Source of the DNA: a virus
DNA length: 64,000 nucleotides
Reading direction: 5' to 3' (one strand)
IMG/VR virus record: IMGVR_UViG_3300032516_000004
Span: 96,001 to 160,000 of that record
Part shown: positions 11,163 through 47,297 of the stretch, piece after piece
How positions within the stretch are numbered: the first letter of the stretch is position 1
Layout of the letters: the number at the start of each line of letters is the position of its first letter
Program-made: the position numbers and the translations under genes
The notes under the pieces: generated by a model
Seen by the model: the letters and a program-made list of their open reading frames with translations, nothing else
Told to the model about the DNA's origin: nothing
Database searches by the model: none

Positions 11163-11172
11163 GAGATTCGAT

Positions 11173-12144
11173 ATGGTGGCCACAAAATACATATACTCGA
11201 TTCAAACAGATTTCCCGAATCACAAGGTCGACAGCACGACGCTGACAACCGAGATCGGACTGTCTGCCATCACGGTCGCGTTGGATCATATTGATACTGC
11301 TGGAGATAACTGCGACATCTGGTTCAAAGCCGCATTGTCCGGTGGCGAAGAGACCATGTTGAATGGAGTTGTGGCCGTGCATCAGGGCATTGCGCCAAGT
11401 CCAGGGATATCCCTGGTTCAGTTGTCTTCTCCGAAGATGACCGACAACAAGCCCTTCTTTACCCCAGACATGTTCCCTGCAGGCACTATCGCGGTGTTTG
11501 CCGATTGCGCCGATAACGCTACAACGGGTGTCCGTTGGGCCGGAGATCGGTTTCAAGTCTCTGCTAATTCCGAAGGTGACACTGTTTTTGAAGCTCAGTT
11601 CATCGATTTATTGTATCTGGTCGGCGGCGATATGGTGCGAAAGAACGGGACTATTGGAGACTACGCAAAACACAAAATCTATTGTCCAGCTACGGCAGGC
11701 ACCGAGAATGTGGGTGCGGGAGATTTCGACAAGTTCCAAGTAGCCACAAGCTGCAATATGTACGTCTACGTCTCGACAGGAGATGGTGACTGGGACTTGA
11801 ACCTGACTGAGAAACTGAACGCCAACGTGAATTTCACCAAGGCTGTTCCAGTGCCATGTGTTCCAGGGACTGGCTGGTTTGATTACAATCCTACGACCGA
11901 CACGCTGGTTGTGAACCCAGACCATGCTGGTAGTTACAATCTGTTCGATTTCGACGTGTATTTGCCGCCACACCTTCCGGTGCTGGGCCTGCTAGGTGAC
12001 GGTACTAGAGACTTGAGGCCATTTGCTGCGAGTCCGAAAGCGTTACTGCCCCATTGGATTCACGAGGTCACTGTTCACCACGGCACCGGCACGCATCAGT
12101 TGGATGTGACGTGGACCCTAATTGTAGGAAGGTATCCATTCTGA
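11173..12144 (+). CDS. Hypothetical, probably virion-associated protein
   Basis: AGGAG SD at 11161-11165, ATG 11173; follows the fibre gene; beta-rich composition. Confidence 0.65.
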   Translation: MVATKYIYSIQTDFPNHKVDSTTLTTEIGLSAITVALDHIDTAGDNCDIWFKAALSGGEETMLNGVVAVHQGIAPSPGISLVQLSSPKMTDNKPFFTPDMFPAGTIAVFADCADNATTGVRWAGDRFQVSANSEGDTVFEAQFIDLLYLVGGDMVRKNGTIGDYAKHKIYCPATAGTENVGAGDFDKFQVATSCNMYVYVSTGDGDWDLNLTEKLNANVNFTKAVPVPCVPGTGWFDYNPTTDTLVVNPDHAGSYNLFDFDVYLPPHLPVLGLLGDGTRDLRPFAASPKALLPHWIHEVTVHHGTGTHQLDVTWTLIVGRYPF

Positions 12145-16097: not shown

Positions 16098-16226
16098 ATG
16101 ACGTTTAAGAAAACAAGTAAGGGTATCACGATGGGCGTTATTGAACAGCCAAAACCAGTTCAAGAGTCCACCGTTGAAGTACAGCAGCCAAATAAAGATA
16201 AGCTTGAAGAGAAAAATAAAAAATGA
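16098..16226 (+). CDS. 42-aa hypothetical protein coupled to the head protease gene
   Basis: MTFKKTSKG...; its stop overlaps the next ATG (ATGA at 16223-16226). Confidence 0.45.
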   Translation: MTFKKTSKGITMGVIEQPKPVQESTVEVQQPNKDKLEEKNKK

Positions 16227-18877
16227 GTTCTAAAGGTTTTATTAAGACGGCCTCCGTCTCCACAATAGCGGTTGCTATTAGTGATGGTAAAATTTTTCAG
16301 AAGTCCGCTGCATACAAAGACGAACAGGGCAGCGCATATCTAAGCGGCTCACGTACAATTGATATTAAAGCGGCTCTGGATATTGTGGCCTCTGAATATA
16401 ATATCTCGCCAAATCCAGAAGATTACGTATTTGAAGCAATTCGTGGTAACACTGCTAACATTCCTAATGAAAATCATGACGCATTTCATAAGAATGAATT
16501 ATTGCGATTCGATCACCGATTGGGCAAGCAAGTTTATCGTACGTATGAGCTTAAGCCACACCATGTACAACATCGAGCAAGTGACCCTAAGGCCGCTCGT
16601 GGCTTTATTGTTGATGCCCACTATAACGACTCAGCAGGGCCACTAGATGAGTGTCCTAATTGTGGTCATAAGACCGCTAGCAAAGAGGGCCGTGATCAAA
16701 GCGGTATTCATTGTGCTAGCTGTGGGTCTGTGGTTAAAGACGAATATGTAGAACTTCTCATAGCCATTGATAAGACTAAAGACCCCACATTTGCCCAGGG
16801 TGTAATGAGTGGTGTTCTTAAGCATGGATCGATGGGATGCAGTTGTCTTCGTACTCGTTGCAATGTTTGTGGTAAAGTCGCGTATACTAGAAGTGAGTTT
16901 TGTGGACATATTGCTCGCGGTAAGGGCAAAGAATATGACGAATCAGAACCTGGTTTTAATCCGATAGCTTTTGTTGTAAAAGGGTCGAAGGATAAGCGAG
17001 CTAGTAAACCCAAAAAGATAGCTAAGTCATTTGAGTGGTGTGAGGGTGTAATTTACGACGAATTTAGTCGTGTTCATGATCCAGCAGATCCTAAAGCAGA
17101 GCAGTATGAGATTCTTAAACTCACGGCTAAGGTAGCTGAACTTGAACATACTGATAAATTACGAAACGAATCAGAAATTCTTACTCTTCAGGCTAGAGTA
17201 GCTGAACTTGAGCGAAAGTTGGGTGAGAAATTGAATAAGATAGCACAAGTAGTTCCTCCGGTAGATCCTATGATGGCTCCCCCGGTGGATCCCATGATGG
17301 CTCCTCCGGTGGATCCAGCAGCGGCTCCTTCCAGTGTTCTTCCCTCTTCAGCTGCTGGACAACCACCGGTTGTTATTAATATTAATGCTCCTGGTGTTGG
17401 TGTTGATTCTGAGCAACCTCTTGAAGAGGTTCCAGCGCCACCTAAGATCCCTATTGAAGAAATGACCCCCGAGAGTGAAGGAATGACCCCCGCTGGACCA
17501 GGTGAAGCTTTAACGCCTGCGGCCATGGGTATTGAAGAAGAGAAGGAAGCCCCAGCCGCTCCAAAACGTGGAGCAAGTGTTGATAGGGCATTGAGAGAAA
17601 TGATTAACAATTTAGGAGGCCCATCCATGCTCCGTTTTGCACAATCTTATAAGCATATTAAGGCAGAAATTACCAGTGCTGGTAATGTTAGAATTTTTGA
17701 TTCAGAGGGAACACTCTTTGTAGTTAAACCAGATCGACTTGATTCGAACATTAAGATAGCGGCCAAGAATCCAGAAGAGCTGGCCAAGTCAGTTTTGACC
17801 ATGGTTGCTGATTTTGGTATTGGCGGCGCTATTAAACGAACCAATGCTATTGTTGGTCCACGTTTGGCTCAGGTTCTTGAGTACGCAACTGACGACATTG
17901 AGGATGAGGATCGTATCAAGACTGATTCTATTAAGGATAAAGAAGATTCTGACATGACACAGGAGCGCGCTAAGCCAGAAGATAGCGCCACTGAGGCTGG
18001 TGAGTCGGCTGATCGTCAAGAGACTCAGGAAGTTAAGGGTCTTGGTGATAATGTTCTTGTGGATCGTGAAGTTGATGTAGAGGATGAGAAACATACTCGT
18101 GAGCCTGGTAAGGATCAATGGGGTGGCTTCAATATTCTTGAGATGCAGGATGCCGACACTAAAGAGAAGCGGGAAAAGAAAGATGTTGGCAAGGATACGG
18201 TCGTGAAGAACATTCAAACAGACCATAAAGAGAAGGTAGCTGAAAAGACAGAATCTAAGAAATATGATAATCAAGTTCACGCTGCCCGCTTAGAGGGTAT
18301 TTACAAGGCACGACTGGAACGGAAGATTGCTGATTTGACCAAAGAGAAGGAAGATTTCAAAAATAATCTTGTGGCTCGAGTTACCCGTGCTATGAAGCTG
18401 GTTGCTCATCGTCAAGCGCTGAATCTTGAATATTCGCCGCTTAAGTTGGCTATGGGTGTTGCGCTTTGTAATAAGCGTGCCCTGAATGATAAAGAGTTTT
18501 ATAATCCCATGGATCAGGGGACCGCAGTTCAGTTGATTGAGGCGGCGTTCAGTGAGCCTATTATTGAGGGTGTGGATAAGGCGGCTTGGGAACACCATAT
18601 CGATTCATTGATTGAACGCGCCGCGTCTGTAATGCAGATGAACGATGAAGCGCTTATGCAGGTGGAGACTGATCTTAGAAATATTAAGACAGCCACTATT
18701 CCGTTTGATGAAGCGGTTGTTAATACGGATGGTGATTTTGAGTTGAAGCAGGCTGCTAAGCAGGGTAATTTGCAGCTTGCACCGAAGCCAGTTGATGACG
18801 CGCCAGCTATTAACAACAAGCGTGAAGCGATTCGACGTGCAGTTGGTACAACTAAAGTGGCTAGTTTAGCGAGGTAA
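16223..18877 (+). CDS. Prohead (capsid maturation) protease fused to scaffold
   Basis: NENHDAF, KPHHVQH and GSMGC..C..C...CGHI motifs of phage head proteases; acidic/coiled C-half; lies directly upstream of the decoration and capsid genes. Confidence 0.7.
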   Translation: MSSKGFIKTASVSTIAVAISDGKIFQKSAAYKDEQGSAYLSGSRTIDIKAALDIVASEYNISPNPEDYVFEAIRGNTANIPNENHDAFHKNELLRFDHRLGKQVYRTYELKPHHVQHRASDPKAARGFIVDAHYNDSAGPLDECPNCGHKTASKEGRDQSGIHCASCGSVVKDEYVELLIAIDKTKDPTFAQGVMSGVLKHGSMGCSCLRTRCNVCGKVAYTRSEFCGHIARGKGKEYDESEPGFNPIAFVVKGSKDKRASKPKKIAKSFEWCEGVIYDEFSRVHDPADPKAEQYEILKLTAKVAELEHTDKLRNESEILTLQARVAELERKLGEKLNKIAQVVPPVDPMMAPPVDPMMAPPVDPAAAPSSVLPSSAAGQPPVVININAPGVGVDSEQPLEEVPAPPKIPIEEMTPESEGMTPAGPGEALTPAAMGIEEEKEAPAAPKRGASVDRALREMINNLGGPSMLRFAQSYKHIKAEITSAGNVRIFDSEGTLFVVKPDRLDSNIKIAAKNPEELAKSVLTMVADFGIGGAIKRTNAIVGPRLAQVLEYATDDIEDEDRIKTDSIKDKEDSDMTQERAKPEDSATEAGESADRQETQEVKGLGDNVLVDREVDVEDEKHTREPGKDQWGGFNILEMQDADTKEKREKKDVGKDTVVKNIQTDHKEKVAEKTESKKYDNQVHAARLEGIYKARLERKIADLTKEKEDFKNNLVARVTRAMKLVAHRQALNLEYSPLKLAMGVALCNKRALNDKEFYNPMDQGTAVQLIEAAFSEPIIEGVDKAAWEHHIDSLIERAASVMQMNDEALMQVETDLRNIKTATIPFDEAVVNTDGDFELKQAAKQGNLQLAPKPVDDAPAINNKREAIRRAVGTTKVASLAR
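17255..17330 (+). repeat. 24-nt coding repeat (PPVDPMMA x2, PPVDPAAA)
   Basis: Seen directly in the translation and in the DNA. Confidence 0.8.
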
Positions 18878-18956
18878 GATTGCCTTCCTAGGACAAATGC
18901 ATTGTGCATGAATCTAGAGAAGGTGTTTTGGCAAACCAATTTAAAGGAGAAAAACA

Positions 18957-19754
18957 ATGGGTTCTACAGGTTTGGCCAGTCCTAGGTTAGGCGCATTTCA
19001 GAATGCCGTCTTCCCGCGAGGACTAGATTTGGGTCGGTGTGTGATTCTTCAGGATCTTGGTGTCTTCCGCGCAGCATCAGCCGCCAGTTTCGAAGCTGGT
19101 ATGTTGGTACGGCAAGACGCTACCGGTAACATTGAAAAATGTGCTGGTAAGTCAGTTCTCGGTGTGGCAAAGTGGAACAAATCTGTCGTTTTCACGGCAG
19201 CGTCGGTGGATGAGCCGATTTCGTTCCCAACCGCAACGGCAGCTGTGGCCTTGAAGCATCCAAATGTTAGCAACTTCCAATTGCGTAGTGCTGTGAGTCT
19301 TGGTGGTGTTAAGTACGTGCTCACAAACGATTACACCATTAATACGACCAATGGTATTGTTACCCGAGTGAATCCGGGTACAACACCAATTCCGCTCAGC
19401 ACAACGGTATATACAACATATACCTATGAGTTGGCTTCGGCGGATCTGGACTTCCAGGGTCGTAACTTCTGGAATTTCACGGACGATGTTACCATTCAGG
19501 ATAACAGAATTACGGTTATCACCGATGCATCAGCTCTGTTTACCTCAATGTATGACACATCTCGTGATGATTACGCGCTTACGGGTGCAGGGAAGAACCT
19601 GTACTGTGGTGGTGGCGTTACGGCAGCTCTGGCTGGTTTGTTCACGACAGACAGTGCTGAAGGTGAGTTCGTTGGACACGTTATCCAACCTCCGACAGCC
19701 GATGACCCGTTCCTCGGCGTTCGGTTGGGTGGCGATCCAGTGAAGTATGCATAA
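18957..19754 (+). CDS. Capsid decoration/head-stabilising protein
   Basis: Strong AAGGAG SD; between protease and MCP; FEAGMLVRQDA..IEKCAG and VIQPPTADDPFLGV resemble beta-tulip head proteins; biased codon use. Confidence 0.55.
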   Translation: MGSTGLASPRLGAFQNAVFPRGLDLGRCVILQDLGVFRAASAASFEAGMLVRQDATGNIEKCAGKSVLGVAKWNKSVVFTAASVDEPISFPTATAAVALKHPNVSNFQLRSAVSLGGVKYVLTNDYTINTTNGIVTRVNPGTTPIPLSTTVYTTYTYELASADLDFQGRNFWNFTDDVTIQDNRITVITDASALFTSMYDTSRDDYALTGAGKNLYCGGGVTAALAGLFTTDSAEGEFVGHVIQPPTADDPFLGVRLGGDPVKYA

Positions 19755-19764
19755 TTAACCCGGT

Positions 19765-19796
19765 GAATGGGGTGGGACATTTTGTCCCACCCCTTC
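19765..19796 (+). other. GC-rich hairpin between the decoration and MCP genes
   Basis: GGGGTGGGACA-TTT-TGTCCCACCCC: 11-bp perfect stem (19769-19793), extendable by GAA/TTC; no U-tail. Confidence 0.8.
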
Positions 19797-19834
19797 TCCC
19801 ACAAGGAAAGTTTATTAACTAGGAGGATTGGAAA

Positions 19835-21097
19835 ATGAGTGCAGTTATTAATCCGTACAAGCGTCTTGCTGCAGCCGGGGCGGCAAAGCCTACCAGCGAG
19901 CAACGTAAAATGGTTGCAAGTTCTGCCACGCCGAAGGCTGTTGAGCAACATAGGACAAAGGCGGCAGAAAACACTCATCTGGCTTCTCGTGAAGATGAGA
20001 AGGTATGGGATGAGAGTGGAACATTTAACCCCACCGCGTATGCCGGTGAGACGACCCGCGATGGTATTCGTCAAGCGGTTGGCAACACCAAGCTGTCAGA
20101 GCGTATGTTCGACAAGCGTGGTGAAGTTAACGCGTATGATGACAAGGACGCCCTGCAACAGATTGCCTACTTGCTCCAAAGTGTAACCAAGAAGGCATCT
20201 CCTGGCACCTTCTATCGTGAAGCGTCTACTGATATGCCAGCTGAGGAGCGCCGCAAGGTTCTCGCAGCCGCCATGCAGGATCCCTCGGGTGAGGGTTTCG
20301 CGATTGTTGGTCAGGAGTTGTTGCTCCCGATCAAGGACATCATCGATTACGAAGGTTGGGCTCGGAAGATCTATCGGGTTCGGCCACTCGCTCAGGGTGA
20401 GTTGTTCCGTATCGCGAAGGATGTTCGTGCAACGGCTTGGGTTGTGGGACAAGATGGTCAGTCGATTGAGAGCCGTTTGTTCGGTCGTTTCATTCAGCCG
20501 TCAGAGTTCAAAGTTACGGCATTCCCGACCGTCGACATCGAAGACATCTATCAGATGAACTATGATGTTTTGGATCGCGCTCAGGATACCGCTCGTCAAG
20601 AGATCGAGTTGGAAGAGGACAAGCGAGGCTTGGCTCTTCTAGATCGAGCTGCTTTGACCGTGAATTCGGTTACGATTTTCGCGACTCTTGGAATTTCGGC
20701 GTTTGAAGACGTTCGATACCAGGTTGAGCGGCATCGTCTGATGGTTGAGAAGTTCTTGATCAACCGTGCCGAGCTTTCTGATATCGTGAAGACCATGAGT
20801 ACTCAGGTGGATCCGGTGACCGAGCGCGAGTTGATCCTCGCCGGTTATATTGGTAACATCTTGAATGCTCAGATCATCACGGCCGCTGGTACTGGAGTTG
20901 AGGAAGTGGTACCGAGAGGGACATTCTACGCAGCCACCGGTAGTGAGTATCTTGGCGAGATGGGTGTAAGGGTGGAACTGTTTTCTGAGCCCTTCAACAT
21001 GTTTTCGCACCGTCGATTAACGAAGGGTTGGGCGTTTGGCGAGATCGTTGGGTTCGGTATTCCGAACCCACGTAGTGTCAGCAAGGGACACAAATAA
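19835..21097 (+). CDS. Major capsid protein (HK97 fold)
   Basis: AGGAGG SD; ELLLPIKDIIDYEGWARKI..., PTVDIEDIYQMNYDVLDRAQDTARQEIELEED pattern; end of the head module, followed by a terminator. Confidence 0.8.
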   Translation: MSAVINPYKRLAAAGAAKPTSEQRKMVASSATPKAVEQHRTKAAENTHLASREDEKVWDESGTFNPTAYAGETTRDGIRQAVGNTKLSERMFDKRGEVNAYDDKDALQQIAYLLQSVTKKASPGTFYREASTDMPAEERRKVLAAAMQDPSGEGFAIVGQELLLPIKDIIDYEGWARKIYRVRPLAQGELFRIAKDVRATAWVVGQDGQSIESRLFGRFIQPSEFKVTAFPTVDIEDIYQMNYDVLDRAQDTARQEIELEEDKRGLALLDRAALTVNSVTIFATLGISAFEDVRYQVERHRLMVEKFLINRAELSDIVKTMSTQVDPVTERELILAGYIGNILNAQIITAAGTGVEEVVPRGTFYAATGSEYLGEMGVRVELFSEPFNMFSHRRLTKGWAFGEIVGFGIPNPRSVSKGHK

Positions 21098-21125
21098 CGC
21101 AACGCGTTATGATTAAGTGATGATT

Positions 21126-21148
21126 TGTGGGGCGCTCGTCGCCCCACA
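21126..21148 (+). terminator. Probable intrinsic terminator after the MCP gene
   Basis: TGTGGGGCG-CTCGT-CGCCCCACA 9-bp stem followed by an AT-rich tail. Confidence 0.65.
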
Positions 21149-21199: not shown

Positions 21200-22621
21200 G
21201 TGGCTCAGCGCATTGATATATCTGAAGATGCTTTAATACAAGATTGTGAAAACGGTCTTTTACAATCTGAAATGGCCCGAAAGTATAATGTGAGCAAAAC
21301 CACTATTAGTCAAAAGATTAAATTATATGGTATAAAATATACACCACGTTCTCAAAATCCAAGATATAGTGCTTTAATGTCTCAAGCATCTAATAAAATG
21401 TGGGACAATCAGGAATTACGACAACAGACTGGCAATCGAGCTAAGCAGCGCTGGGCCACAGAGCAATATCGTGAGAAGATTCAAGAAACTTACCAGAAGA
21501 CAGATTACGCGAAGCGTCAGGGTGAAATATCAAAGTTGGCGTGGCAGGATGATAAATATAGAAATCACTTAGTGTTATTATTTACATCTAATGAATTTAG
21601 AAATAAACAGCGTCAAAAATCTAATGATTGGTGGAATGATCCAAATAGAAGGCAGCAAGCTAGTAAAAGGACAAAACAAAATTGGACTAATGAAGAATTT
21701 CAACATAAGGTAGCAGTTGGTCAGAGTAAAGTTCCAAGAACAATGACCACCCCACATAGGCAGGTATGTAATTTACTTGATGCTATGGGCATAGAATATC
21801 AAACAGAGGTTCCAATAGCTAAGTATAGATTTGATATTTTGATACCTTCTCATAAGCTTTTTATTGAAACACAAGGTGATTATTGGCATGGTGAAAAGAA
21901 AAATGTAATCTGGCGAGATAGGGCTAAAGGATCATACATAGCCAACAATTTTCCGCAGTATAGGTATAAAGAATTATGGGAACATGAATGTGAGACCGAA
22001 GATTATGTTAGACATAAGCTAGAATATTGGCTTGGTGCTAAAATAAATCTTAAAGATTACAATTTTGACGATATACAAATTAAAACTGTAGATCGTGATG
22101 TGGCTAGTAAGTTTATTCGTGATTGGCACTATTTACATAAAGGCAGATTTGGTCTAGATATAGGTGGCTTTATAAGTGATCAGCTGGTTGTGTTGACTCG
22201 TTTTACGTCTGTTACTCGTCTCGAAATGGCTACAACAATAGGCTACCATCATAAAGAGGTATTGGAATTATCTAGATTATGTATCCATCCAGCATATCAG
22301 AAGAAGAATCTGGGTTCTTGGTTTTTGTCACGAGTTGAGGGTGTCATTAGACATTTAAGACCAGACATTAAGTGTTTGGTATCGTTTGCTGATATGACAT
22401 ATGGACATACGGGGGCAGTTTATAAGGCATCAAATTGGCAGTTAATATCAGAAACTAAACCAGATTATTGGTATGTGAAAGAGGATGGTTGGGTAATGCA
22501 TAAGAAAACATTATGGAATAAGGCTAAGGATGTTGGATTAACTGAAAACGATTTTGCTGCTAGATTTGGATATGTTAAAGTGTGGGGTAAAGAAAAATTT
22601 AAGTTTATTAAGAAACTGTAG
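21200..22621 (+). CDS. HTH + helical W-repeats + Vsr/DUF559-like endonuclease + Mom-like (GNAT-type) DNA-modification domain fusion (copy 1)
   Basis: EVPIAKYRFDILIP..LFIETQGDYWHG...LWEHE (PD-(D/E)xK); WHY, LELSRL, N..SWFLS, VSFAD..YGHTGAVYKASNW (Mom family). Confidence 0.75.
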   Translation: MAQRIDISEDALIQDCENGLLQSEMARKYNVSKTTISQKIKLYGIKYTPRSQNPRYSALMSQASNKMWDNQELRQQTGNRAKQRWATEQYREKIQETYQKTDYAKRQGEISKLAWQDDKYRNHLVLLFTSNEFRNKQRQKSNDWWNDPNRRQQASKRTKQNWTNEEFQHKVAVGQSKVPRTMTTPHRQVCNLLDAMGIEYQTEVPIAKYRFDILIPSHKLFIETQGDYWHGEKKNVIWRDRAKGSYIANNFPQYRYKELWEHECETEDYVRHKLEYWLGAKINLKDYNFDDIQIKTVDRDVASKFIRDWHYLHKGRFGLDIGGFISDQLVVLTRFTSVTRLEMATTIGYHHKEVLELSRLCIHPAYQKKNLGSWFLSRVEGVIRHLRPDIKCLVSFADMTYGHTGAVYKASNWQLISETKPDYWYVKEDGWVMHKKTLWNKAKDVGLTENDFAARFGYVKVWGKEKFKFIKKL

Positions 22622-23818: not shown

Positions 23819-24096
23819 GGTTGTTCTGCAATCGCCCCGATTTCGTGGATGGTTTTAATTAGACTATTAATCAAATCTTTATGTTGATCGTCGTACATTA
23901 AGTCAAGGGAGACAGTTAGCCGTACCTCGGGTGAGCAGTCCATAGCAATTGGACGTCCCCAATTCTCGGTTGTCATTTCATGGGGCTCCGCGTATCGGGG
24001 CTTTACGTCTCGTGATTGGGATAGCTTAAATGGTGTTACACAATGAATCATTGGATTCTCCTTAGATTTTTTGGTCCCAGTACATACGACCTTCAA
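23815..24096 (-). CDS. Hypothetical protein
   Basis: Overlap-coupled small ORF. Confidence 0.55.
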   Translation of the reverse strand: MKVVCTGTKKSKENPMIHCVTPFKLSQSRDVKPRYAEPHEMTTENWGRPIAMDCSPEVRLTVSLDLMYDDQHKDLINSLIKTIHEIGAIAEQP

Positions 24097-24511
24097 TAAT
24101 TTCTTGTCTTACACGCATTAGTATCTTACCCAGATGATTTTGTCCTTTGCCGCCACATACACCCCAGAACTTATCACCCCAGGTATTACCTTCGATCAAT
24201 TCTACATTACCGGTTCCTAATAGATCTAGGGTCAACGATGGGCTGTTAGCAAACTTATTACGAACCAAATATTCCATGAGCGGTATTTTGATTTTGCTGA
24301 AGTCAGCACGCATGGTGACCTGTCTACCTAGAATCCTCGCATCTCCTGGTGAATAAGTGTTTCGTATCGCCTCACTGGCCTGTGGATTAAACGTTTTGGT
24401 TGCTTGATATGCATGTTCTACAGATTTATATTCAATACCATTTAAGTATACCGGTGATTCATAAAAATTAGACAGGAATCGATAAATACCTGTGAACCTA
24501 TTAATTGCCAT
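24062..24511 (-). CDS. NADAR (YbiA-like) family protein
   Basis: FLSNFY, SVEHAYQA.K, ARILGR, LVRNKF, LLGTG..ELIEGNTWGDKFWG....GQNHLGKILMRVR. Confidence 0.9.
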   Translation of the reverse strand: MAINRFTGIYRFLSNFYESPVYLNGIEYKSVEHAYQATKTFNPQASEAIRNTYSPGDARILGRQVTMRADFSKIKIPLMEYLVRNKFANSPSLTLDLLGTGNVELIEGNTWGDKFWGVCGGKGQNHLGKILMRVRQEIIEGRMYWDQKI

Positions 24512-24555: not shown

Positions 24556-25128
24556 ATGGCGATTTGGTTTACATCGGACACACATTTCAAACACGCTAAC
24601 ATCCTTAAGTATTGTGGTCGTCCATTTGACAATATTGGGACTCATGATCAGACGCTAATTAAACGTTGGAATAATAAAGTTCAGCCAGATGATGTGGTAT
24701 ATCATTTGGGTGATTTTGCGTTTGGTAGATCAGAAGATTGGATGACGATTATTAGACAATTAAATGGTTGTATTAATCTGATCAAGGGCAACCATGATCA
24801 TAGTGATAAATTGAAGAAACTCAAGGAATTACCAGGCAAGAATCTCAATTTCTTGGGTCACTATCACGAGGTAAAGGTTGACGATGAAGAAATGGATGTT
24901 ACTCAGGTAATTGTGCTATTTCATTACCCGATTGAGTCATGGAATAAGCGACATCATGGGTCTTGGCACCTACACGGCCATACGCACAATAATCTTATGT
25001 CACCAGAGTATCAGGCTAGGCTGGATGTTAGCGTTGACAGTCACGATTATTCGCCGATTTCTTATGATGACGTGAAAACACTGATGACCCGAAAGGTATT
25101 CAAGGTAATCGATCACCACGGGTCATAG
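24556..25128 (+). CDS. Calcineurin-like metallophosphoesterase
   Basis: FTSDTHF.H, HLGDF, KGNHD, LFHYP, HLHGHTH motifs. Confidence 0.9.
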   Translation: MAIWFTSDTHFKHANILKYCGRPFDNIGTHDQTLIKRWNNKVQPDDVVYHLGDFAFGRSEDWMTIIRQLNGCINLIKGNHDHSDKLKKLKELPGKNLNFLGHYHEVKVDDEEMDVTQVIVLFHYPIESWNKRHHGSWHLHGHTHNNLMSPEYQARLDVSVDSHDYSPISYDDVKTLMTRKVFKVIDHHGS

Positions 25129-25354: not shown

Positions 25355-25960
25355 TTATTTCTTAACCGAGTTCATATAGAACCATCGATTCGGCGCATAG
25401 ATGACCCATTGTTCACCGTCCCATCGTTTGAACACGTCATCGCCGGGATTGTAGTAACAATCACCAGTTGTGGGTGATTCTGGGCATTTGTCTTCCGCTT
25501 GTAACAGCATGCCGCTTCGGTCCACAGAGTTTTCTCGATGGATCTTGATTGTTTCCCGATCGCTATTGATTAGTGCTAGAATTAATACAGAAACATGTGG
25601 GTCTTCACACGGTTTCCACATATTGTTACCTAACATGTCTTTACTTAGAAATTCACATTTAAGTTCGTAGTTCGAGGTATCATACGACTTTGGTACCCAG
25701 GCGGCTCGCCAAGTGTTTTCTTGATTTGTCCATTCCACATATTGGGGTTTCTTATCACATCTACACCCAACATCTTTACAAGTAAGTTCTTTAGCCATTG
25801 ATAGCTCCTCACAGCATTTTTGACAATCTCGATTGTCGTTTGCAATTAAATATAGGTTAATCGGCGATCCACCATTAAAGAAATGATTATTAATAGTATG
25901 GTCCAAATCTGGTAAAATGTCTTTCCAGTTTTGGAGTGACACAACAGTTACTTTATTCAT
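25355..25960 (-). CDS. Hypothetical Cys-rich protein
   Basis: Likely ATG at 25960 overlapping the end of the HNH gene; CQKC, CKDVGCRC. Confidence 0.55.
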   Translation of the reverse strand: MNKVTVVSLQNWKDILPDLDHTINNHFFNGGSPINLYLIANDNRDCQKCCEELSMAKELTCKDVGCRCDKKPQYVEWTNQENTWRAAWVPKSYDTSNYELKCEFLSKDMLGNNMWKPCEDPHVSVLILALINSDRETIKIHRENSVDRSGMLLQAEDKCPESPTTGDCYYNPGDDVFKRWDGEQWVIYAPNRWFYMNSVKK

Positions 25961-26501
25961 TTTTGGTACTCTTGGCCCTTTTGGCTGCAAGCTTGGCAGT
26001 TTCTTGTTTGTGGCACTGGCAACATAGGGTTCTATAATTGTCGAGCCCACATTCGCCACCACCTTCAATGACCGGTATAATATGGTCAGCATCCCAAATT
26101 CCATACCAGGGTCTGGATCGATACCGATGAACCGGTATTTTGAGTTCTTGGAGCTTTGTCATTAGCTTAACGTTTTTGAGAATATTGTTTTCATATTCCC
26201 AGGTGTATTGATTCTTTGGGCCGTTTTTATCTTCAAGCTTTTCTAGTTTTTTGACCAGGGCTTTGCAATCTATACCACATATGGTACAAACACCGTGGTC
26301 TCGAGCATATAACTTGGTTCTTACATATGTAGGATTTGTTTTGATTTTCCAACGATCTACACATTGATCGCCACAAAATGATCGGCGACCCACTGGTACT
26401 TCAGCGTTACATTGCCGACATAAGGCTCTATCATTGGGTCCACGAGGTAAAGCCTTGGGATTAACCCAGCCCCGCTGTCCGCTAACTCGCTGAGTGCTCA
26501 T
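25953..26501 (-). CDS. HNH endonuclease with N-terminal Zn finger
   Basis: CRQC..FCGDQC; YARDHGVCTICG; WDADHIIPVIEGGG..GLDNYRTLCCQCH. Confidence 0.9.
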   Translation of the reverse strand: MSTQRVSGQRGWVNPKALPRGPNDRALCRQCNAEVPVGRRSFCGDQCVDRWKIKTNPTYVRTKLYARDHGVCTICGIDCKALVKKLEKLEDKNGPKNQYTWEYENNILKNVKLMTKLQELKIPVHRYRSRPWYGIWDADHIIPVIEGGGECGLDNYRTLCCQCHKQETAKLAAKRAKSTKNE

Positions 26502-36443: not shown

Positions 36444-38012
36444 ATGGCGTTTTTGCAGATTAAGCGAGACAGTATTTATTTGAGCATCGAATCTACCCCC
36501 AAGCCGATTAGACCGTTGATGTCAGAATCAAAGGGGAAGTTTGTGTATTCTATTCCGGCTTGTGTGCAGATTATCAACAACGTTAAGAAAGATCGTCGCA
36601 GATTTATGAGCCTGGACACTGATTTTTCTAGATGGCTTAAGAATAATCCAGATCCATTGTGGGATTTGCTAGATACAAAGGATAAATTTGATCGTGATGG
36701 TAAACGGCAAGATTTTGCGGTTCGCCCGCAACATATTTTACCAATATGGTCTTATATGGATAATGACGTAAAGATTGTTAAGCAGGGAAATCAATTTTAT
36801 GATGACATGGAAAAATATGATGAGGGTGGTGGTAAAGTTACCGATTGTGATTGGATGGCGTGGACAGAGGGGAGTGGTTTTTCTAAGAGATATTTCACTT
36901 CTCGTCAAGATAGGTCACAATTTACACCACTTATTGATCCTAAACTTCTAGCACAGAAAATCCAAGTGCTGATTCAGCAGGCTTTAAGTGATTTGGTTCC
37001 ATTTAAAACAGAAGATGAGATGCTTAGGTATATTTATGGTAGTGTGGTAGAAGAAGCTGCGGCGTTTCCGCATGGGGTAAATGCTCCGGCTCAGATTCCA
37101 GAGCAAACTGGTATGCCGTATAATGTTATGCCAGCGTATATGCCTGGTGGAACCCCACCAATTCAACATGGCGCTTTGCCGACTCCACAACAATGGCAAC
37201 AGCCACAGCCACAGCCACAGCCACAGCCACCACAGCAGCAACCACAACCTCCACAGCAACAATGGTCTCCTCCTGGACCCCAACAACAGATGCCTCAGCA
37301 ACAAGTGTCTCAGCAGCAATGGACCGCTCCAGTACCACAACAAGCATGGACTCCACCAGCACCACAACAAGCGTGGACTCCACCGGTACCACAACAAACT
37401 TCACAGCCACAGTGGACACCGGTACAGCAACCACCGGCACAGCAAGCACCAGTGCAGCAGCCACCGACCCAGTGGACACCCCCACAACCTCAACAGCAGT
37501 GGACACCACCTAAAGTTGATGTGCCAAATGCACCGGTTACATCTCAACCGGTATTTGCCCCACCAGCTCAACCATCTCAACAGGCACAACCAATGCAGGT
37601 TGGTGGACCGGGACAGGTCGTTGTAAGTGGTGGTAAACATGATGGTAAAACTTTGGGCTGGATTAAAGACAATGACGCTAGTTATCTCTCATTTTTAAAG
37701 GGGAACAAGAAGGAACTTGCACCGGCCATCGAAGCTCTATTGGGTGGAACCCAACTACCAACACAGACACCTAGCGCTCAACCACAGGCACAACAAGTTA
37801 ATCCAGATGCTGAGGCAGTAAGATCACAATTGGTAAAAGAGATAAACCAAAAAATCATGTCTATTCCCGAATTTCAGGGGCAGGGTGTGGTAACTGCGAT
37901 GATGCCGTTCTTACAACAAGTAATTGGCACTACCAAATTCTCTGATGCCCCAATTGATCAACTGCAGACTCTTAAGATGGCTGTTGATACTAAATTAGCT
38001 CCAAGAGCGTAA
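36444..38012 (+). CDS. Putative ssDNA-binding/recombination protein with long Gln/Pro-rich low-complexity linker
   Basis: Globular N-domain ending WTEGSGFSKRYFT (gp32-like OB pattern, weak); ~200-aa Q/P tract; GGKHDGKTLGWI..NDASYLSFL module; directly upstream of recA. Confidence 0.5.
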   Translation: MAFLQIKRDSIYLSIESTPKPIRPLMSESKGKFVYSIPACVQIINNVKKDRRRFMSLDTDFSRWLKNNPDPLWDLLDTKDKFDRDGKRQDFAVRPQHILPIWSYMDNDVKIVKQGNQFYDDMEKYDEGGGKVTDCDWMAWTEGSGFSKRYFTSRQDRSQFTPLIDPKLLAQKIQVLIQQALSDLVPFKTEDEMLRYIYGSVVEEAAAFPHGVNAPAQIPEQTGMPYNVMPAYMPGGTPPIQHGALPTPQQWQQPQPQPQPQPPQQQPQPPQQQWSPPGPQQQMPQQQVSQQQWTAPVPQQAWTPPAPQQAWTPPVPQQTSQPQWTPVQQPPAQQAPVQQPPTQWTPPQPQQQWTPPKVDVPNAPVTSQPVFAPPAQPSQQAQPMQVGGPGQVVVSGGKHDGKTLGWIKDNDASYLSFLKGNKKELAPAIEALLGGTQLPTQTPSAQPQAQQVNPDAEAVRSQLVKEINQKIMSIPEFQGQGVVTAMMPFLQQVIGTTKFSDAPIDQLQTLKMAVDTKLAPRA

Positions 38013-44212: not shown

Positions 44213-44602
44213 ATGGGTTTATATGACAGAATTAAAGATACGATTAACAAGCTTAAACCAACGCTGGCTGTTCAGCCTGCCCTGCGGCCTATTAAAGAAC
44301 CAATTGATATAGAAGAACCAGAAGTTCCAGAACCCATAAGAAAAGCTAGTTATATTAATGAGGCCAGCATTGTTTATGCTATTCGACAGGCGGCGCGTCA
44401 CAGGTTACTGGTGCAGGTGTATTATAATTTGGTCTGGCGGTATGTAGAGCCATATTCCATGCGCATGGGTAAATATGGTACATTATTTTATGGACACGAT
44501 CTTACAAGGAATAATACTCGTTCGTTTTATATTCATAAGATAGTGGAACTTAAGGGTACAGACATTCCATTTAATCCTAGATGGTTTATAGAAATTCAAT
44601 GA
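44213..44602 (+). CDS. WYL-domain protein
   Basis: IRQAARHRLLVQVYY...RYVEPYSM...LFYGHDLTRNNTRSFYIHKI. Confidence 0.7.
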   Translation: MGLYDRIKDTINKLKPTLAVQPALRPIKEPIDIEEPEVPEPIRKASYINEASIVYAIRQAARHRLLVQVYYNLVWRYVEPYSMRMGKYGTLFYGHDLTRNNTRSFYIHKIVELKGTDIPFNPRWFIEIQ

Positions 44603-46206
44603 AAATAGTGGACGATCAGATAAGAAAAGATTGTGCAATTGGTATGCTGGTATGTGAAATGGCCAAAAAATATGACGTTAGTATACGTAGTATTCGTATT
44701 TACATAAAAACACACAGTATTAACTATATAATGGATAAAAATAGACATAGAGCATATTTATCTACTAAATTAAAAGAAAAATGGACCGACCCCAAATTTA
44801 GAGAAAGAGCTACTAACGCCGCTATTGAGACTTGTAAAAGTAAACAATATAAAGATAATGTGTCATTAGCAACTAAAAAAGCAATGGATACTCCAGAGAT
44901 TAAAGCTAAACTGTCAAGAGCTTCAAAAGACAAATGGAATAACCCAGAATATAGAAATAATTTAATGGCATTATATTCTACTGAAGAGTATAAAAATAAA
45001 TTATCATCTATATCTATGGAAAGATGGAAAGATCCTGGTAGAAGACATAAAATATCGGTCGCTATTAAGAAAAGATGGAGCGATCTGGGGTATAGGCAAA
45101 AATCGTCAGAATCTTCAGCTATTAGACAGAACACGACAAGTCATAAATTAAAAATGTCCGATATATCTAAAGATGTATGGAAGAATCCAAACCATCGATT
45201 GAAAATGAGGAATATATGGATCAGTGATGAATATAAACAGAAAAAATCAAAAATAGCTCGAGGTCTATGGGAAGATGATGAATATAGAAACAAACTAGCG
45301 GTTGCCCAAAGAACAAATAAAAAATCGCTAACCAAACCACACAATAAGGTCATAACGATACTGGACGCATTAAATGTTCAATATGAAGTTGAGTATGTTA
45401 TTGGTCCTTGGACTTTTGATGTTTTTATACCAACACATAATATATTAATTGAGGTTCAAGGTAACTATTGGCATAGCTTTAAGGATCAGATTAGAAGAGA
45501 CAACAGCAAATTGTCTTATATATCTAAGTATTTTCCTCAGTATAAATTAAAATATATATGGGAACATGAATGTTTTACTGATAGACAAGTAGAAAGTAAA
45601 TTAAAATATTGGCTTGGCATTACTTTACAAGAAGTGAAGGAATTTAATTTTAACGATCTCGTCATAAAAACACCCAATATTAAAGAAGCAGATGACTTTC
45701 TATATAACTGGCACTATATGTATCGTGGAACACATGGTATAGATTATGGTGGGTATATTAATGGTCAATTAATAGTATTGGCTAGATTCACCTCGCCGCA
45801 TAGAAAAGAAGTCGCAACATCATTAGGGTATTCTCATAAAAATGTATTAGAACTGTCTAGGTTGTGTGTACACCCGCAATTTCAAAAGAAAAATTTGCTT
45901 AGTTGGTTTCTATCTAAAATTAAAAATCTAATTAATGTAAAAATTAAATGTCTTGTATCATTTGCTGATACTACATACGGACATACAGGAGCTGTATATA
46001 AAGCAAGTAATTGGGAATTGCATTCGATGGTAAGGCCAGACTATTATTATGTATCACCAGATGGGTGGGTAATGCATAAAAAGACCCTGTGGAATCGTGC
46101 TAGTAGTTTAAGTATGAAAGAATTAGAATATGCAAATAAAATTGGGTATATTAAAGTTTTGGGGAAAGAAAAGCTAAAATTTATATACAGATTTTATAGA
46201 GATTAA
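44599..46206 (+). CDS. HTH + helical W-repeats + Vsr/DUF559-like endonuclease + Mom-like domain fusion (copy 2)
   Basis: Same architecture as 21200..22621: EYVIGPWTFDVFIP..ILIEVQGNYWH; WHY, LELSRLC, VSFADTTYGHTGAVYKASNW; ATGA overlap at 44599. Confidence 0.75.
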   Translation: MKIVDDQIRKDCAIGMLVCEMAKKYDVSIRSIRIYIKTHSINYIMDKNRHRAYLSTKLKEKWTDPKFRERATNAAIETCKSKQYKDNVSLATKKAMDTPEIKAKLSRASKDKWNNPEYRNNLMALYSTEEYKNKLSSISMERWKDPGRRHKISVAIKKRWSDLGYRQKSSESSAIRQNTTSHKLKMSDISKDVWKNPNHRLKMRNIWISDEYKQKKSKIARGLWEDDEYRNKLAVAQRTNKKSLTKPHNKVITILDALNVQYEVEYVIGPWTFDVFIPTHNILIEVQGNYWHSFKDQIRRDNSKLSYISKYFPQYKLKYIWEHECFTDRQVESKLKYWLGITLQEVKEFNFNDLVIKTPNIKEADDFLYNWHYMYRGTHGIDYGGYINGQLIVLARFTSPHRKEVATSLGYSHKNVLELSRLCVHPQFQKKNLLSWFLSKIKNLINVKIKCLVSFADTTYGHTGAVYKASNWELHSMVRPDYYYVSPDGWVMHKKTLWNRASSLSMKELEYANKIGYIKVLGKEKLKFIYRFYRD

Positions 46207-46239: not shown

Positions 46240-46506
46240 ATGGCCGTTTTTCATGTAGATCAAAGAATACACAAATTAGTTCAACAGTATTGTAAGAACA
46301 ATGGGTTTCAAATAAAACAATGGGTAATAGCTGCCTTAGAGAAAGCAATGTACGATGGTGTTGGATATGTAGAAGGAAATATGAAGATCAATCCATCCAA
46401 GAAAATGAGATTGGACAAGGTTGTTCAGAAACAGCTGGTTGATAACACACCCGCACCATCAGACGATGATCTGTGGTTTAAGCCGCCATTTTGGGCTAAG
46501 AACTAA
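46240..46506 (+). CDS. Ribbon-helix-helix-like DNA-binding protein
   Basis: FHVDQRIHKLVQQYC..NG.QIKQWVIAALEKAM pattern. Confidence 0.45.
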   Translation: MAVFHVDQRIHKLVQQYCKNNGFQIKQWVIAALEKAMYDGVGYVEGNMKINPSKKMRLDKVVQKQLVDNTPAPSDDDLWFKPPFWAKN

Positions 46507-47297
46507 TGGGCGGCTGGTTAAACCACCCAACACTTAAGGTTGTAATGAGTCGAGAAGCACGACAGCTACGTGATGCTGTCGTGGATAAATCCATAGAGTG
46601 CGGTACTAGTGGCATGCTGCCAGCAGACATGAAAAAATTTATTGACACGTTCATGGCGGCATATAACCCAATGGTTTGGGAATGTCCTGTAATGTACGCA
46701 CATGTTTCTGAGATCTGGAATGCGTTTCTACGTATGACATCTGCCGCATATAAGGACCAACAAAAAGCGGGTCGAGAGACTAGAGGTAATGTGACGGGGA
46801 TACGCAGGAAGGACATAGATTGGCTTTCTATAATAATATCGTTTCCAGATACGTGGTGGATGTCGTCTGTTCAAGAAAAACGTAAAGGAAGTATTGCTCT
46901 GTGTAACCTTGATGGGGTTCTGAAACCATTCGAAGATATGTATCGATTATATACTAACTGGTTAATAGCTGACTTTAGCGTTAAGACCTTGTTTGGAATA
47001 TTTGATGTATCTAAGAGGTATTCTATTGAAATAGTCAAAGAGTGTATGGATGCAGTAGATAATGTTCGTAATAGGTCATTTGAATATTTAATGGCCATTA
47101 TTGATAGAGAATTTGCGGCTAGACAGATTGAAATGATGCAGAATAAAGAGTTACTAGATAAGTCGAAAGACATATTAAATGCTGTAATAGATATGGCACG
47201 TAGTAAGTCTGAACATATAGATTGGGAGTTTATTGAGAAAGACACCAGCACTATTAAAGAAAATGAAGATGAGTTTGATAAAATCAAATTAACATGA
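46506..47297 (+). CDS. Hypothetical replication-associated protein
   Basis: Coupled on both sides, directly upstream of the primase-helicase gene. Confidence 0.55.
   Translation: MGGWLNHPTLKVVMSREARQLRDAVVDKSIECGTSGMLPADMKKFIDTFMAAYNPMVWECPVMYAHVSEIWNAFLRMTSAAYKDQQKAGRETRGNVTGIRRKDIDWLSIIISFPDTWWMSSVQEKRKGSIALCNLDGVLKPFEDMYRLYTNWLIADFSVKTLFGIFDVSKRYSIEIVKECMDAVDNVRNRSFEYLMAIIDREFAARQIEMMQNKELLDKSKDILNAVIDMARSKSEHIDWEFIEKDTSTIKENEDEFDKIKLT

What the first reader, a model, noticed from the sequence alone, without database searches (positions are those of the whole stretch)
21200..22621. Endonuclease-Mom fusion (copy 1): a single-chain cut-and-protect element?
Seen: N-terminal HTH, about 6 helical repeats (S..W.d..yR.k, like the DNA-binding repeats of homing endonucleases), a Vsr/DUF559-type nuclease and a complete Mom-like domain, inserted right after the capsid terminator. 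Established: Mu Mom converts adenine to N6-(1-acetamido)adenine and blocks restriction. Inference: a nuclease fused to a base-hypermodifying enzyme could act as a compact restriction-modification-like or selfish element that marks its own genome and cuts unmarked competitors.
Basis: partly seen in the sequence, partly recalled or inferred. Interest (0 to 1): 0.7.

Follow-up and report, generated by a model that had tools for sequence, protein, structure and literature searches.

The report
Homing endonuclease with intact Mom domain
This gene is a mobile "homing" nuclease of an uncultured phage, fused to a well-preserved relative of phage Mu's DNA-modifying enzyme Mom; the fusion and the cut-and-protect idea are already in print, so it is a new member of a known kind whose Mom half has never been tested.

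Summary
ORF 21200-22621 (473 aa) has an N-terminal HTH, about 8 short helices with a W-containing repeat, a Vsr/I-Bth0305I-type (EDxHD) nuclease and a complete Mom-type GNAT domain. It sits 100 bp after the capsid gene, behind a GC-rich hairpin. A 40%-identical paralogue lies at 44599-46206.

Both behave as free-standing homing endonuclease genes. Copy 2 fills a spacer that is 55 bp in a complete relative, and two complete relatives have no copy. Other family members sit beside capsid, sheath, polymerase or RecA genes.

The family is large: 332 clusters at 50% identity. In cultured phages its relatives are annotated "Hef-like homing endonuclease".

The architecture and the "momylation protects, nuclease attacks" idea were published by Iyer et al. 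2021 (PMC7824862). This scan has noted the fusion before in at least 58 other genomes.

What I add: this subfamily keeps every residue shared by stand-alone Mom enzymes, and the Mom domain is the most conserved part (59% between the two copies). The seven cultured-phage Hef-like proteins I aligned have lost several of these residues.

Best reading: a mobile homing endonuclease whose Mom domain is probably still an active, locally acting adenine modifier. That activity is untested. Verdict: new member of a known kind, modest interest.

The parts
19835..21097 (+). Major capsid gene (context). In this phage clade, synteny ends exactly at its stop codon.
   Evidence: phrog_2522 major head protein, E=3.4e-59. 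55-92% aa identity to 32 viral contigs. Synteny with relatives ends at 21097.
21126..21148 (+). GC-rich hairpin (terminator-like) between the capsid gene and the endonuclease gene.
   Evidence: 9-bp stem with 7 GC pairs and a 5-nt loop, followed by a weak T-run.
21200..22621 (+). Copy 1: free-standing homing endonuclease gene, 473 aa, GTG start, no obvious Shine-Dalgarno sequence.
21200..21343 (+). Residues 1-48: helix-turn-helix domain.
   Evidence: Helices 9-17, 22-28 and 33-43, pLDDT about 96. Weak Pfam HTH_3/HTH_28 hits. HTH families are recorded on homologues.
21344..21733 (+). Residues 49-178: array of about 8 short helices with a W-containing repeat; presumed DNA-binding array. It is the least conserved part (24% identity between the two copies).
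   Evidence: Repeat count scales with N-terminal length across the family.
21734..22045 (+). Residues 179-282: Vsr-fold (EDxHD-type) nuclease domain. Catalytic equivalents are D212, Q225, H230 and D240. E223, K243 and the W260-E-H-E263 motif are also conserved.
   Evidence: 3r3p E=3.7e-5. Z 12.9 to 3r3p and 12.3 to Vsr 1cw0. D212, H230 and D240 are invariant in 120 homologues. Residue mapping uses PMC3239194.
22046..22618 (+). Residues 283-473: Mom-type GNAT domain, including the helix-turn-helix-like insertion (helices 435-444 and 449-456).
   Evidence: PF25680 E=7e-26. 8bv8 Z 17.1. H310, Y311, R359, N370, S373, D398, H403, Y408 and H434 are conserved at 88-100% in 120 homologues and match the stand-alone Mom consensus.
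44599..46206 (+). Copy 2: paralogous homing endonuclease gene. It is 535 aa from the ATG at 44599, which overlaps the upstream TGA stop, or 541 aa from the ATG at 44581.
   Evidence: 40% identity to copy 1 over the full length. PF25680 E=9e-20. Start/stop overlap seen. It is inserted in a spacer that is 55 bp in relative G001.
44213..44602 (+). Conserved upstream neighbour of copy 2 (129 aa, unknown function).
   Evidence: 49% identity to the G001 homologue and 38% to the G002 homologue, in the same gene order.
46240..46508 (+). Conserved downstream neighbour of copy 2 (88 aa), followed by ORF263 and the primase-helicase gene.
   Evidence: In G001 the homologue lies 55 bp after the ORF129 homologue. 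Primase-helicase assignment.

Best explanation
Both genes are free-standing homing endonuclease genes of the Hef-like branch of the Vsr-fold (EDxHD, I-Bth0305I-type) family.

Inferred mechanism: the HTH and the variable helical-repeat array bind a long site in a conserved neighbouring region. For copy 1 that would be the capsid gene end; for copy 2 the ORF129/primase region. The nuclease, probably as a dimer as in I-Bth0305I, cuts phage genomes that lack the gene. Recombinational repair during co-infection then copies the gene in.

The C-terminal Mom-type GNAT domain is an integral, strongly selected part of the enzyme. In this subfamily it is most likely still catalytic: an acyl- or aminoacyl-transferase acting on an adenine in DNA, as Mu Mom does with Gly-tRNA(Gly). 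Tethered to the same DNA-binding array, it would act locally and mark the element's own target site so that the carrier genome is spared. Virion DNA would arrive already marked.

Shown here: domain identities, conservation of catalytic residues, and the insertion/absence pattern. Inferred: cleavage, the target sites, the modification and its protective role.

My confidence that these are mobile homing endonuclease genes is about 0.85-0.9. The 0.45 given is for the whole statement, including an active and protective Mom domain.
For: Mobility:
- Copy 2 occupies an intergenic spacer that is 55 bp in the complete relative G001, with gene order conserved on both sides.
- Two complete relatives (166 and 160.7 kb) have no family member.
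- Of the roughly 20 related capsid loci that extend past the capsid gene, only three carry a member there (L016 and L017, which share one phage sequence, and a weak partial match in L018).
- An ENA phage has two members in tandem after its capsid homologue.
- Other members sit between sheath and tube, after DNA polymerase, or next to RecA or gp23.
- Several metagenomic phage contigs carry two or more paralogues.

Nuclease:
- Sequence and fold match the experimentally characterised I-Bth0305I (PMC3239194).
- D212, H230 and D240 are invariant in 120 homologues.

Mom domain:
- Top structural hit is Mu Mom, above all other GNATs.
- H, Y, R, N, S, D, H, Y and H at the positions of Mu Mom H58, Y59, R111, N121, S124, D149, (R154), Y159 and H183 are 88-100% conserved in 120 sequences that are only about 31-53% identical to copy 1. 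They are identical to four stand-alone Mom-like proteins apart from one position in one of them (Zartrosa has A at N121).
- Residues at these positions are needed for Mu Mom activity (PMC13219725).
- It is the most conserved domain between the two paralogues: 59% identity against 46% for the nuclease and 24% for the repeats.
- This Mom subfamily occurs almost only as the C-terminal part of 400-750 aa fusion proteins.
Against: - No modification or cleavage data exist for any member with an intact Mom domain.
- I-Bth0305I works without any GNAT domain.
- The seven cultured-phage Hef-like proteins aligned have lost Y59, the N121 loop, S124 and H154, and sometimes D149. Homing therefore does not seem to need Mom catalysis, and the fold may have another role.
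- A diffusible enzyme would also modify the competitor's site, so protection needs a kinetic or pre-marking argument.
- From memory, not checked here because the paper is not held: Sandegren et al. 2005 reported that Hef also cuts its own phage's DNA in vitro.
- The first glutamate of the EDxHD motif is H186 here (family: Q 64%, H 24%, E 9%).
- The GTG start without a visible ribosome-binding site suggests low expression.
Confidence: 0.45

Rival explanations
1. It is the same mobile homing endonuclease, but the Mom-like domain is not an enzyme here. It serves as a DNA-binding, base-flipping or dimerisation module that helps the nuclease recognise or clamp its site. The conserved 'catalytic' residues are kept because they hold a flipped adenine or shape the DNA cleft.
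For: The seven cultured-phage Hef-like proteins aligned keep the fold, R111, Y159, G156 and mostly H183 of the DNA-binding insertion, while losing Y59, the N121-S124 loop and H154 (hhalign probability 98.7% across nuclease plus Mom-like region). The fold is therefore useful without Mom chemistry. Mu Mom is itself a dimer that binds double-stranded DNA through a helix-turn-helix-like insertion (PMC13219725), and this insertion is conserved here.
Against: Near-total invariance of nine Mom active-site positions over 120 diverged sequences, identical to the free-standing enzymes, is more than a binding role usually demands. The degenerate relatives show what relaxed selection on catalysis looks like, and this subfamily does not look like that. 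The Mom domain is more conserved than the nuclease.
Confidence: 0.3
2. It is a single-chain restriction-modification-like weapon rather than a homing element, as proposed for jumbo phages by Iyer et al. 2021. The Mom domain modifies the phage genome broadly against host restriction or against its own nuclease. The nuclease degrades host DNA or superinfecting phage DNA.
For: This is the published prediction for the same architecture (PMC7824862). Mu Mom gives broad restriction resistance. The active-site residues are intact.
Against: The long, highly variable sequence-specific N-terminal array (24% identity between paralogues) and the two divergent paralogues per genome fit site-specific homing better than bulk modification or degradation. 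The genes are missing from complete close relatives and are inserted in spacers between conserved genes. The nearest characterised nucleases, I-Bth0305I and Hef, are site-specific homing enzymes.
Confidence: 0.15
3. It is a decaying or domesticated remnant: the gene no longer moves or cuts and is simply carried along.
For: No close orthologue (over 53% identity) exists among 5.8 billion proteins. The start is GTG with no clear ribosome-binding site.
Against: Both ORFs are full-length with every conserved catalytic residue of both domains intact. The AlphaFold2 model is confident throughout.
Confidence: 0.05

Closest known systems
Mom-nuclease fusions of jumbo phages (Iyer, Anantharaman, Krishnan, Burroughs, Aravind 2021, Viruses 13:63, PMC7824862)
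   Same: Same architecture: a Mom-family GNAT fused to a restriction-fold endonuclease. Same proposed logic: momylation protects, the nuclease attacks. Their example phage PA5oct encodes proteins that align with this one over the nuclease and Mom-like regions.
   Different: That description is a computational prediction, made for jumbo phages and framed as restriction-like rather than homing. The one PA5oct protein I aligned lacks Y59, the N121 loop and H154, whereas the window's two copies keep the full Mom residue set. The window's phage is 178 kb, below the usual jumbo cut-off.
Hef (phage U5) and 'Hef-like' free-standing homing endonucleases of T4-like, ViI-like, Campylobacter, Vibrio, Pseudomonas and Bacillus phages
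   Same: Nuclease plus Mom-like region aligns at hhalign probability 98.7%, E=2.3e-16. Tblastn hits cover residues about 175-462. Both are free-standing genes placed between conserved genes such as gp23|gp24, uvsX|gp41 and sheath|tube. Hef is reported to cleave nrdB next to its own locus (PMC2988022).
   Different: Identity is only 21-27%. The cultured-phage proteins have a degenerate Mom-like domain, and JC221's gets no Pfam hit. Their N-terminal modules differ. The U5 Hef sequence itself was not available, so the link to the prototype rests on database annotation.
I-Bth0305I, prototype of the EDxHD homing endonuclease family (PDB 3r3p; Taylor et al. 2011, PMC3239194)
   Same: N-terminal HTH-type DNA-binding region followed by a Vsr-fold nuclease. 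Catalytic D196, H213 and D222 correspond to D212, H230 and D240. Fold match Z 12.9 with 29% identity.
   Different: I-Bth0305I is intron-encoded, 266 aa, and ends after the nuclease with no GNAT domain. Its E170 corresponds to H186 here, and its NUMOD motifs are not detected here.
Phage Mu Mom (PDB 8bv8; PMC13219725, PMC7261163)
   Same: GNAT fold with the Mom-specific helix-turn-helix-like insertion. H58, Y59, R111, N121, S124, D149, Y159 and H183 are all conserved.
   Different: Mu Mom is a stand-alone 231/241-aa dimer under elaborate regulation and modifies about 15% of adenines. Here the domain is a C-terminal module of a site-specific nuclease. Mu R151 is T here, although that position also varies in other stand-alone Mom-like proteins. 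The donor substrate is unknown.

Membership tests
EDxHD (I-Bth0305I-type) homing endonucleases | Vsr-like nuclease fold | tested here: met
   3r3p_B Z 12.9, rmsd 3.0, 96 of 98 residues aligned; Vsr 1cw0 Z 12.3. phmmer to 3r3p E=3.7e-5.
EDxHD (I-Bth0305I-type) homing endonucleases | Composite catalytic motif E-D-x-H-D (I-Bth0305I E170, D196, N208, H213, D222) | tested here: inconclusive
   D212, Q225, H230 and D240 are present, and D, H and D are invariant in 120 homologues. The first position is H186 (family: Q 64%, H 24%, E 9%). Taylor et al. call E170 only a possible participant.
EDxHD (I-Bth0305I-type) homing endonucleases | N-terminal DNA-binding region preceding the nuclease (NUMOD/HTH) | tested here: inconclusive
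   The HTH and a helical repeat array precede the nuclease, but no NUMOD family matched at E<=1.
EDxHD (I-Bth0305I-type) homing endonucleases | Site-specific cleavage next to the gene's own insertion site, and homing | not testable with these tools
   Needs a cleavage assay. Only the population signature (presence/absence, spacer insertion) could be shown.
Free-standing homing endonuclease genes (as a class) | Sporadic presence among close relatives, with insertion in intergenic spacers between conserved genes | tested here: met
   Copy 2 sits in a spacer that is 55 bp in G001. No copy in complete relatives G001 and G002. Copy 1's site is occupied in only three of the roughly 20 related capsid loci that extend past the capsid gene (L016 and L017, one phage sequence, plus a weak partial match in L018).
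Hef-like homing endonucleases | Homology to annotated Hef-like proteins over nuclease plus C-terminal domain | tested here: met
   hhalign probability 98.7%, E=2.3e-16, 260 columns, against Shigella phage vB_SdyM_006. Tblastn to VP-1, JC221, PA5oct, Internexus and Campylobacter phages.
Hef-like homing endonucleases | Homology to the prototype Hef of phage U5 | not tested
   The U5 sequence and the 2005 paper are not held. The link rests on the annotation of intermediates.
Mom family (Pfam PF25680) | Profile match above the curated cut-off | tested here: met
   91.6 bits against a cut-off of 27.1 (copy 1) and 71.6 bits (copy 2). phrog_1384 E=1.7e-27.
Mom family (Pfam PF25680) | GNAT fold with the Mom-specific helix-turn-helix-like insertion | tested here: met
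   8bv8 Z 17.1, 156 residues aligned over model residues 286-473. Foldseek alignment spans 201 columns against the 202-residue chain. Helices 435-444 and 449-456.
Mom family (Pfam PF25680) | Residues needed for Mu Mom activity (H58, Y59, R111, S124, D149, R151, Y159) | tested here: met
   All are present except R151, which is T400. That position is N, G, E or V in four stand-alone Mom-like proteins, so it is Mu-specific. Family-wide conservation is 88-100%.
Mom family (Pfam PF25680) | Post-replicative N6-adenine modification of double-stranded DNA using Gly-tRNA(Gly) | not testable with these tools
   Needs LC-MS or SMRT analysis of DNA exposed to the protein.

The most novel reading that the evidence does not exclude
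The intact-Mom subfamily (the window's two copies and several hundred metagenomic clusters) would be true single-chain 'homing plus epigenetic immunity' elements. The Mom domain, steered by the same DNA-binding array, would put a bulky N6 adduct on an adenine inside the enzyme's own recognition site. Carrier genomes would then be packaged pre-immunised and only naive competitors would be cut. The seven cultured-phage Hef-like proteins aligned would be later derivatives that lost the chemistry and rely on other means. That would be the first homing endonuclease with built-in modification-based self-immunity, and a naturally site-targeted DNA hypermodifying enzyme.
Probability: 0.3. Interest if true: 0.65.

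Novelty: new member of a known kind. Interest (0 to 1): 0.3.

Why it matters
Nobody has tested what the Mom half of these very common phage genes does.

If it is active, the proteins would be naturally programmable, site-directed adenine-hypermodifying enzymes. They would also show a new way for a selfish nuclease to spare its carrier.

The practical result here is a guide for choosing test proteins. Members like this one keep the full Mom residue set. The seven cultured-phage Hef-like proteins I aligned, including one from PA5oct (a phage described in print as encoding momylating enzymes), have lost several residues that Mu Mom needs.

As a genome annotation, the locus is otherwise ordinary: two homing endonuclease genes in an uncultured 178-kb phage.

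Tried and rejected
- Complex prediction for a homodimer of residues 180-473 was sent four times and the machine was unreachable each time. There is no result, so dimerisation is inferred only from I-Bth0305I and Mu Mom.
- A megablast of the gene against phage records found nothing.
- The search for related loci with the primase-helicase found no relatives by peptide patterns. I reached relatives through the capsid loci instead.
- The Sandegren 2005 Hef paper is not held. What I say about Hef cutting its own DNA is from memory.
- One literature search returned only unrelated papers.
- Searches for Hef, EDxHD or Mom together found no paper linking Hef or EDxHD enzymes to Mom. The Iyer 2021 statement was found only after earlier notes of this scan said the fusion was published.
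- The short (about 200 aa) members of this Mom subfamily lie on contigs of 0.7-1.2 kb, so they say nothing about split forms.
- No near-identical phage without the gene exists in the collections (best homologue 53% identity over about 60% of the protein, about 47% near full length). Target-site polymorphism between carrier and non-carrier could therefore not be compared.
- Rfam found no intron or other RNA family in the window, so neither copy is intron-encoded.
- I first read the R151-to-T change as a possible defect. I rejected this after seeing that the position varies among stand-alone Mom-like proteins.
Full report
**Observation**

The frame 21200-22621 (+) is open and encodes 473 aa from a GTG. 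An in-frame TAG lies two codons upstream. The upstream gene (19835-21097) is the major capsid gene (phrog_2522, E=3e-59). It stops at 21097 and is followed by a 9-bp GC-rich hairpin at 21126-21148.

An AlphaFold2 model built on 61 homologues is confident (mean pLDDT 92.2). Its pTM of 0.55 means the relative placement of domains is uncertain. The model shows:
- a three-helix HTH (residues 9-43);
- eight short helices (54-177);
- an alpha/beta nuclease domain (184-278);
- a GNAT domain (293-472).

Five of the helices carry a K..W...(Y/F)(R/K)-type motif. Across homologues the number of such motifs rises with N-terminal length (r=0.86 for W count). This array therefore looks like a modular, expandable DNA-binding region, but no NUMOD profile matched it.

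**Nuclease domain**

Residues 180-278 match the catalytic domain of I-Bth0305I (PDB 3r3p) by sequence (E=3.7e-5) and by fold (Z 12.9, 96 of 98 residues, 29% identity). Vsr (1cw0, Z 12.3) and a DUF559 protein (3hrl, Z 12.2) come next.

Using the residue roles given by Taylor et al. 2011 (PMC3239194), I-Bth0305I D196, N208, H213 and D222 correspond to D212, Q225, H230 and D240. D, H and D are invariant in 120 homologues. The possible fifth residue, E170, is H186 here (family: Q 64%, H 24%, E 9%).

**Mom-like domain**

- Pfam Mom (PF25680) scores 91.6 bits against a cut-off of 27.1.
- Mu Mom (8bv8) is the best PDB hit by sequence (E=1.7e-6), by Foldseek (E=6.5e-12) and by VIA-align. VIA-align gives Z 17.1 against 14.3 for the best ordinary GNAT.
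- The Mom-specific helix-turn-helix-like insertion is present as helices 435-444 and 449-456.

The 2026 Mom paper (PMC13219725) lists residues needed for activity: H58, Y59, R111, S124, D149, R151 and Y159. All are present here (H310, Y311, R359, S373, D398, Y408) except R151, which is T400. Family-wide conservation of these positions is 88-100% over 120 sequences that are only about 31-53% identical to copy 1.

R151 turns out to be peculiar to Mu. Four stand-alone Mom-like proteins (from Enterococcus, Listeria, Vibrio and Arthrobacter phages) have N, G, E or V there. All share the G-H-x-G motif found here, where Mu has R154.

**A second copy, and mobility**

The 177,941-bp genome has exactly one paralogue, at 44599-46206 (40% identity). 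Its ATG overlaps the TGA stop of the upstream gene.

In the complete relative G001 (166 kb) the order ORF129 - ORF88 - ORF263 - primase-helicase is conserved. ORF129 and ORF88 are 55 bp apart there. In the window the same spacer holds the 1.6-kb gene.

Neither G001 nor the complete, terminally repeated G002 (160.7 kb) has any family member.

For copy 1, I recovered 32 related capsid loci:
- Three carry a family member directly after the capsid gene: L016 and L017, which share the same phage sequence (G003), and L018, which shows only a weak partial match.
- The other loci that extend past the capsid gene go, in most cases, straight into a gene whose homologue lies 52 kb away in this genome.
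- An ENA phage contig has two members in tandem after its capsid homologue.

Elsewhere, members sit in these positions:

| Phage or contig | Position |
|---|---|
| JGI 204-kb contig | between tail sheath and UDG/tail tube |
| PA5oct | between tail sheath and tail tube |
| phiR1-37 | after DNA polymerase |
| Campylobacter F357 | directly after the RecA-like gene (RNR small subunit about 1 kb downstream) |
| Shigella phage vB_SdyM_006 | between uvsX (RecA-like) and gp40/gp41 (head vertex chaperone, primase-helicase) |
| JC221 | between gp23 and gp24 |

Several metagenomic contigs carry two or more paralogues. Rfam finds no intron around either copy. This is the population signature of free-standing homing endonuclease genes.

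**Family size**

A search with the Mom-like part alone against 1.84 billion cluster representatives gave 1,621 hits at E<=0.001 and 332 at E<=1e-30. Almost all of the best 150 are the C-terminal part of 400-750 aa proteins. This Mom subfamily therefore essentially lives as a fusion.

**What is already known**

Cultured-phage relatives are annotated 'Hef-like homing endonuclease'. Hef of phage U5 is described as a unique endonuclease that cleaves nrdB (PMC2988022).

My literature searches on Hef or EDxHD did not find any mention of Mom. Notes from earlier agents of this scan said the fusion was in print, and I verified that. The scan has flagged the same fusion in at least 58 other genomes.

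**What this analysis adds**

Aligning the C-terminal domains separates two kinds of fusion.

- The window's two copies and the three metagenomic members examined match the stand-alone Mom consensus at every key position.
- All seven cultured-phage Hef-like proteins examined (PA5oct, phiR1-37 g171, Campylobacter F357, VP-1, vB_SdyM_006, JC221, Internexus) differ. Y59 is replaced by L, I or M. A 7-residue deletion removes the N121 loop. S124 is replaced by T, L, H or Y. The histidine at the R154 position is missing. In three of the seven, D149 is N or S.

Mu Mom S124A is dead and Y59A is severely impaired. These cultured-phage proteins are therefore unlikely to momylate, although they keep the fold, R111, Y159 and mostly H183. 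JC221's protein does not even reach a Pfam hit.

Between the window's two paralogues the Mom domain is the most conserved part: 59% identity, against 46% for the nuclease, 41% for the HTH and 24% for the repeats.

**Mechanism**

I commit to a free-standing homing endonuclease (about 0.85-0.9). The variable HTH and repeat array picks a long site near the gene's own locus. The Vsr-fold nuclease cuts gene-less genomes during co-infection.

For the Mom domain the evidence points two ways:
- The strict conservation of a complete Mom active site, stronger than that of the nuclease, argues for retained catalysis. Tethering to a site-specific array argues for local rather than genome-wide action, which fits self-immunity of the carrier genome.
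- The degenerate Hef-like relatives, and I-Bth0305I which lacks the domain altogether, show that homing works without Mom chemistry and that the fold has some non-catalytic use.

I put the active, protective reading at about 0.45. A purely structural role gets 0.3, a non-homing restriction-modification-like weapon or general anti-restriction function 0.15, and a remnant 0.05. None of these could be tested by computation here.

**Verdict**

The locus is a new member of a known kind. Interest is modest (0.3). The open question is what the Mom half does, and these intact members are better test objects for it than the cultured-phage Hef-like proteins.

Noticed in passing
L033:6220-6477 (IMGVR_UViG_3300042731_001429): A relative's major capsid gene is split between residues 168 and 169 by a 278-bp ORF-less group I intron (Rfam RF00028, 75.6 bits, E=5e-19). 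No family endonuclease follows that capsid gene. The capsid gene of this phage clade is therefore a repeated target of mobile elements.
   Followed up: partly
window 16200-21100 (genome 112.2-117.1 kb) versus genome 57-65 kb: The protease/scaffold - 265-aa - capsid block is translocated in this genome. In Rctr197k, G001, G002 and most other relatives it lies between homologues of genome 57-60 kb and 64.15 kb. Here it lies 8 kb upstream of the RNR gene. The right-hand breakpoint is exactly the capsid stop codon, where copy 1 sits. It may be a nuclease-associated rearrangement, and a misassembly is not excluded.
   Followed up: partly
window 25953-26501 (-): An HNH endonuclease gene (Pfam HNH, E=4e-8). 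A homologue lies about 1.3 kb downstream of the family member that follows the capsid gene in G003 (L017:10222-10713). A second kind of mobile nuclease therefore travels in the same variable region.
   Followed up: no
window 9000-12000, 19000-21000, 37000-38000: Structural genes, including the capsid gene, have 50-57% G+C against about 38% for the rest of the genome. Both endonuclease copies have the low genomic G+C.
   Followed up: no
L045:1-30 (ENA ERZ16303040, 113-kb phage contig): Two genes upstream of the 258-aa/capsid pair, this relative has a 785-aa gene with Hint/LAGLIDADG (intein) hits. This adds to the density of selfish elements around the head genes.
   Followed up: no
window 24062-24511 (-) and 24556-25128 (+): A NADAR-domain protein (E=6e-25) and a calcineurin-like phosphoesterase (phrog_547, E=1e-55) are divergently arranged in the variable region downstream of copy 1.
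   Followed up: no
window 46240-46508 (+): A conserved 88-aa ORF, below the ORF-list length cut-off I used, lies between copy 2 and ORF263. It has a homologue at the same place in G001.
   Followed up: partly
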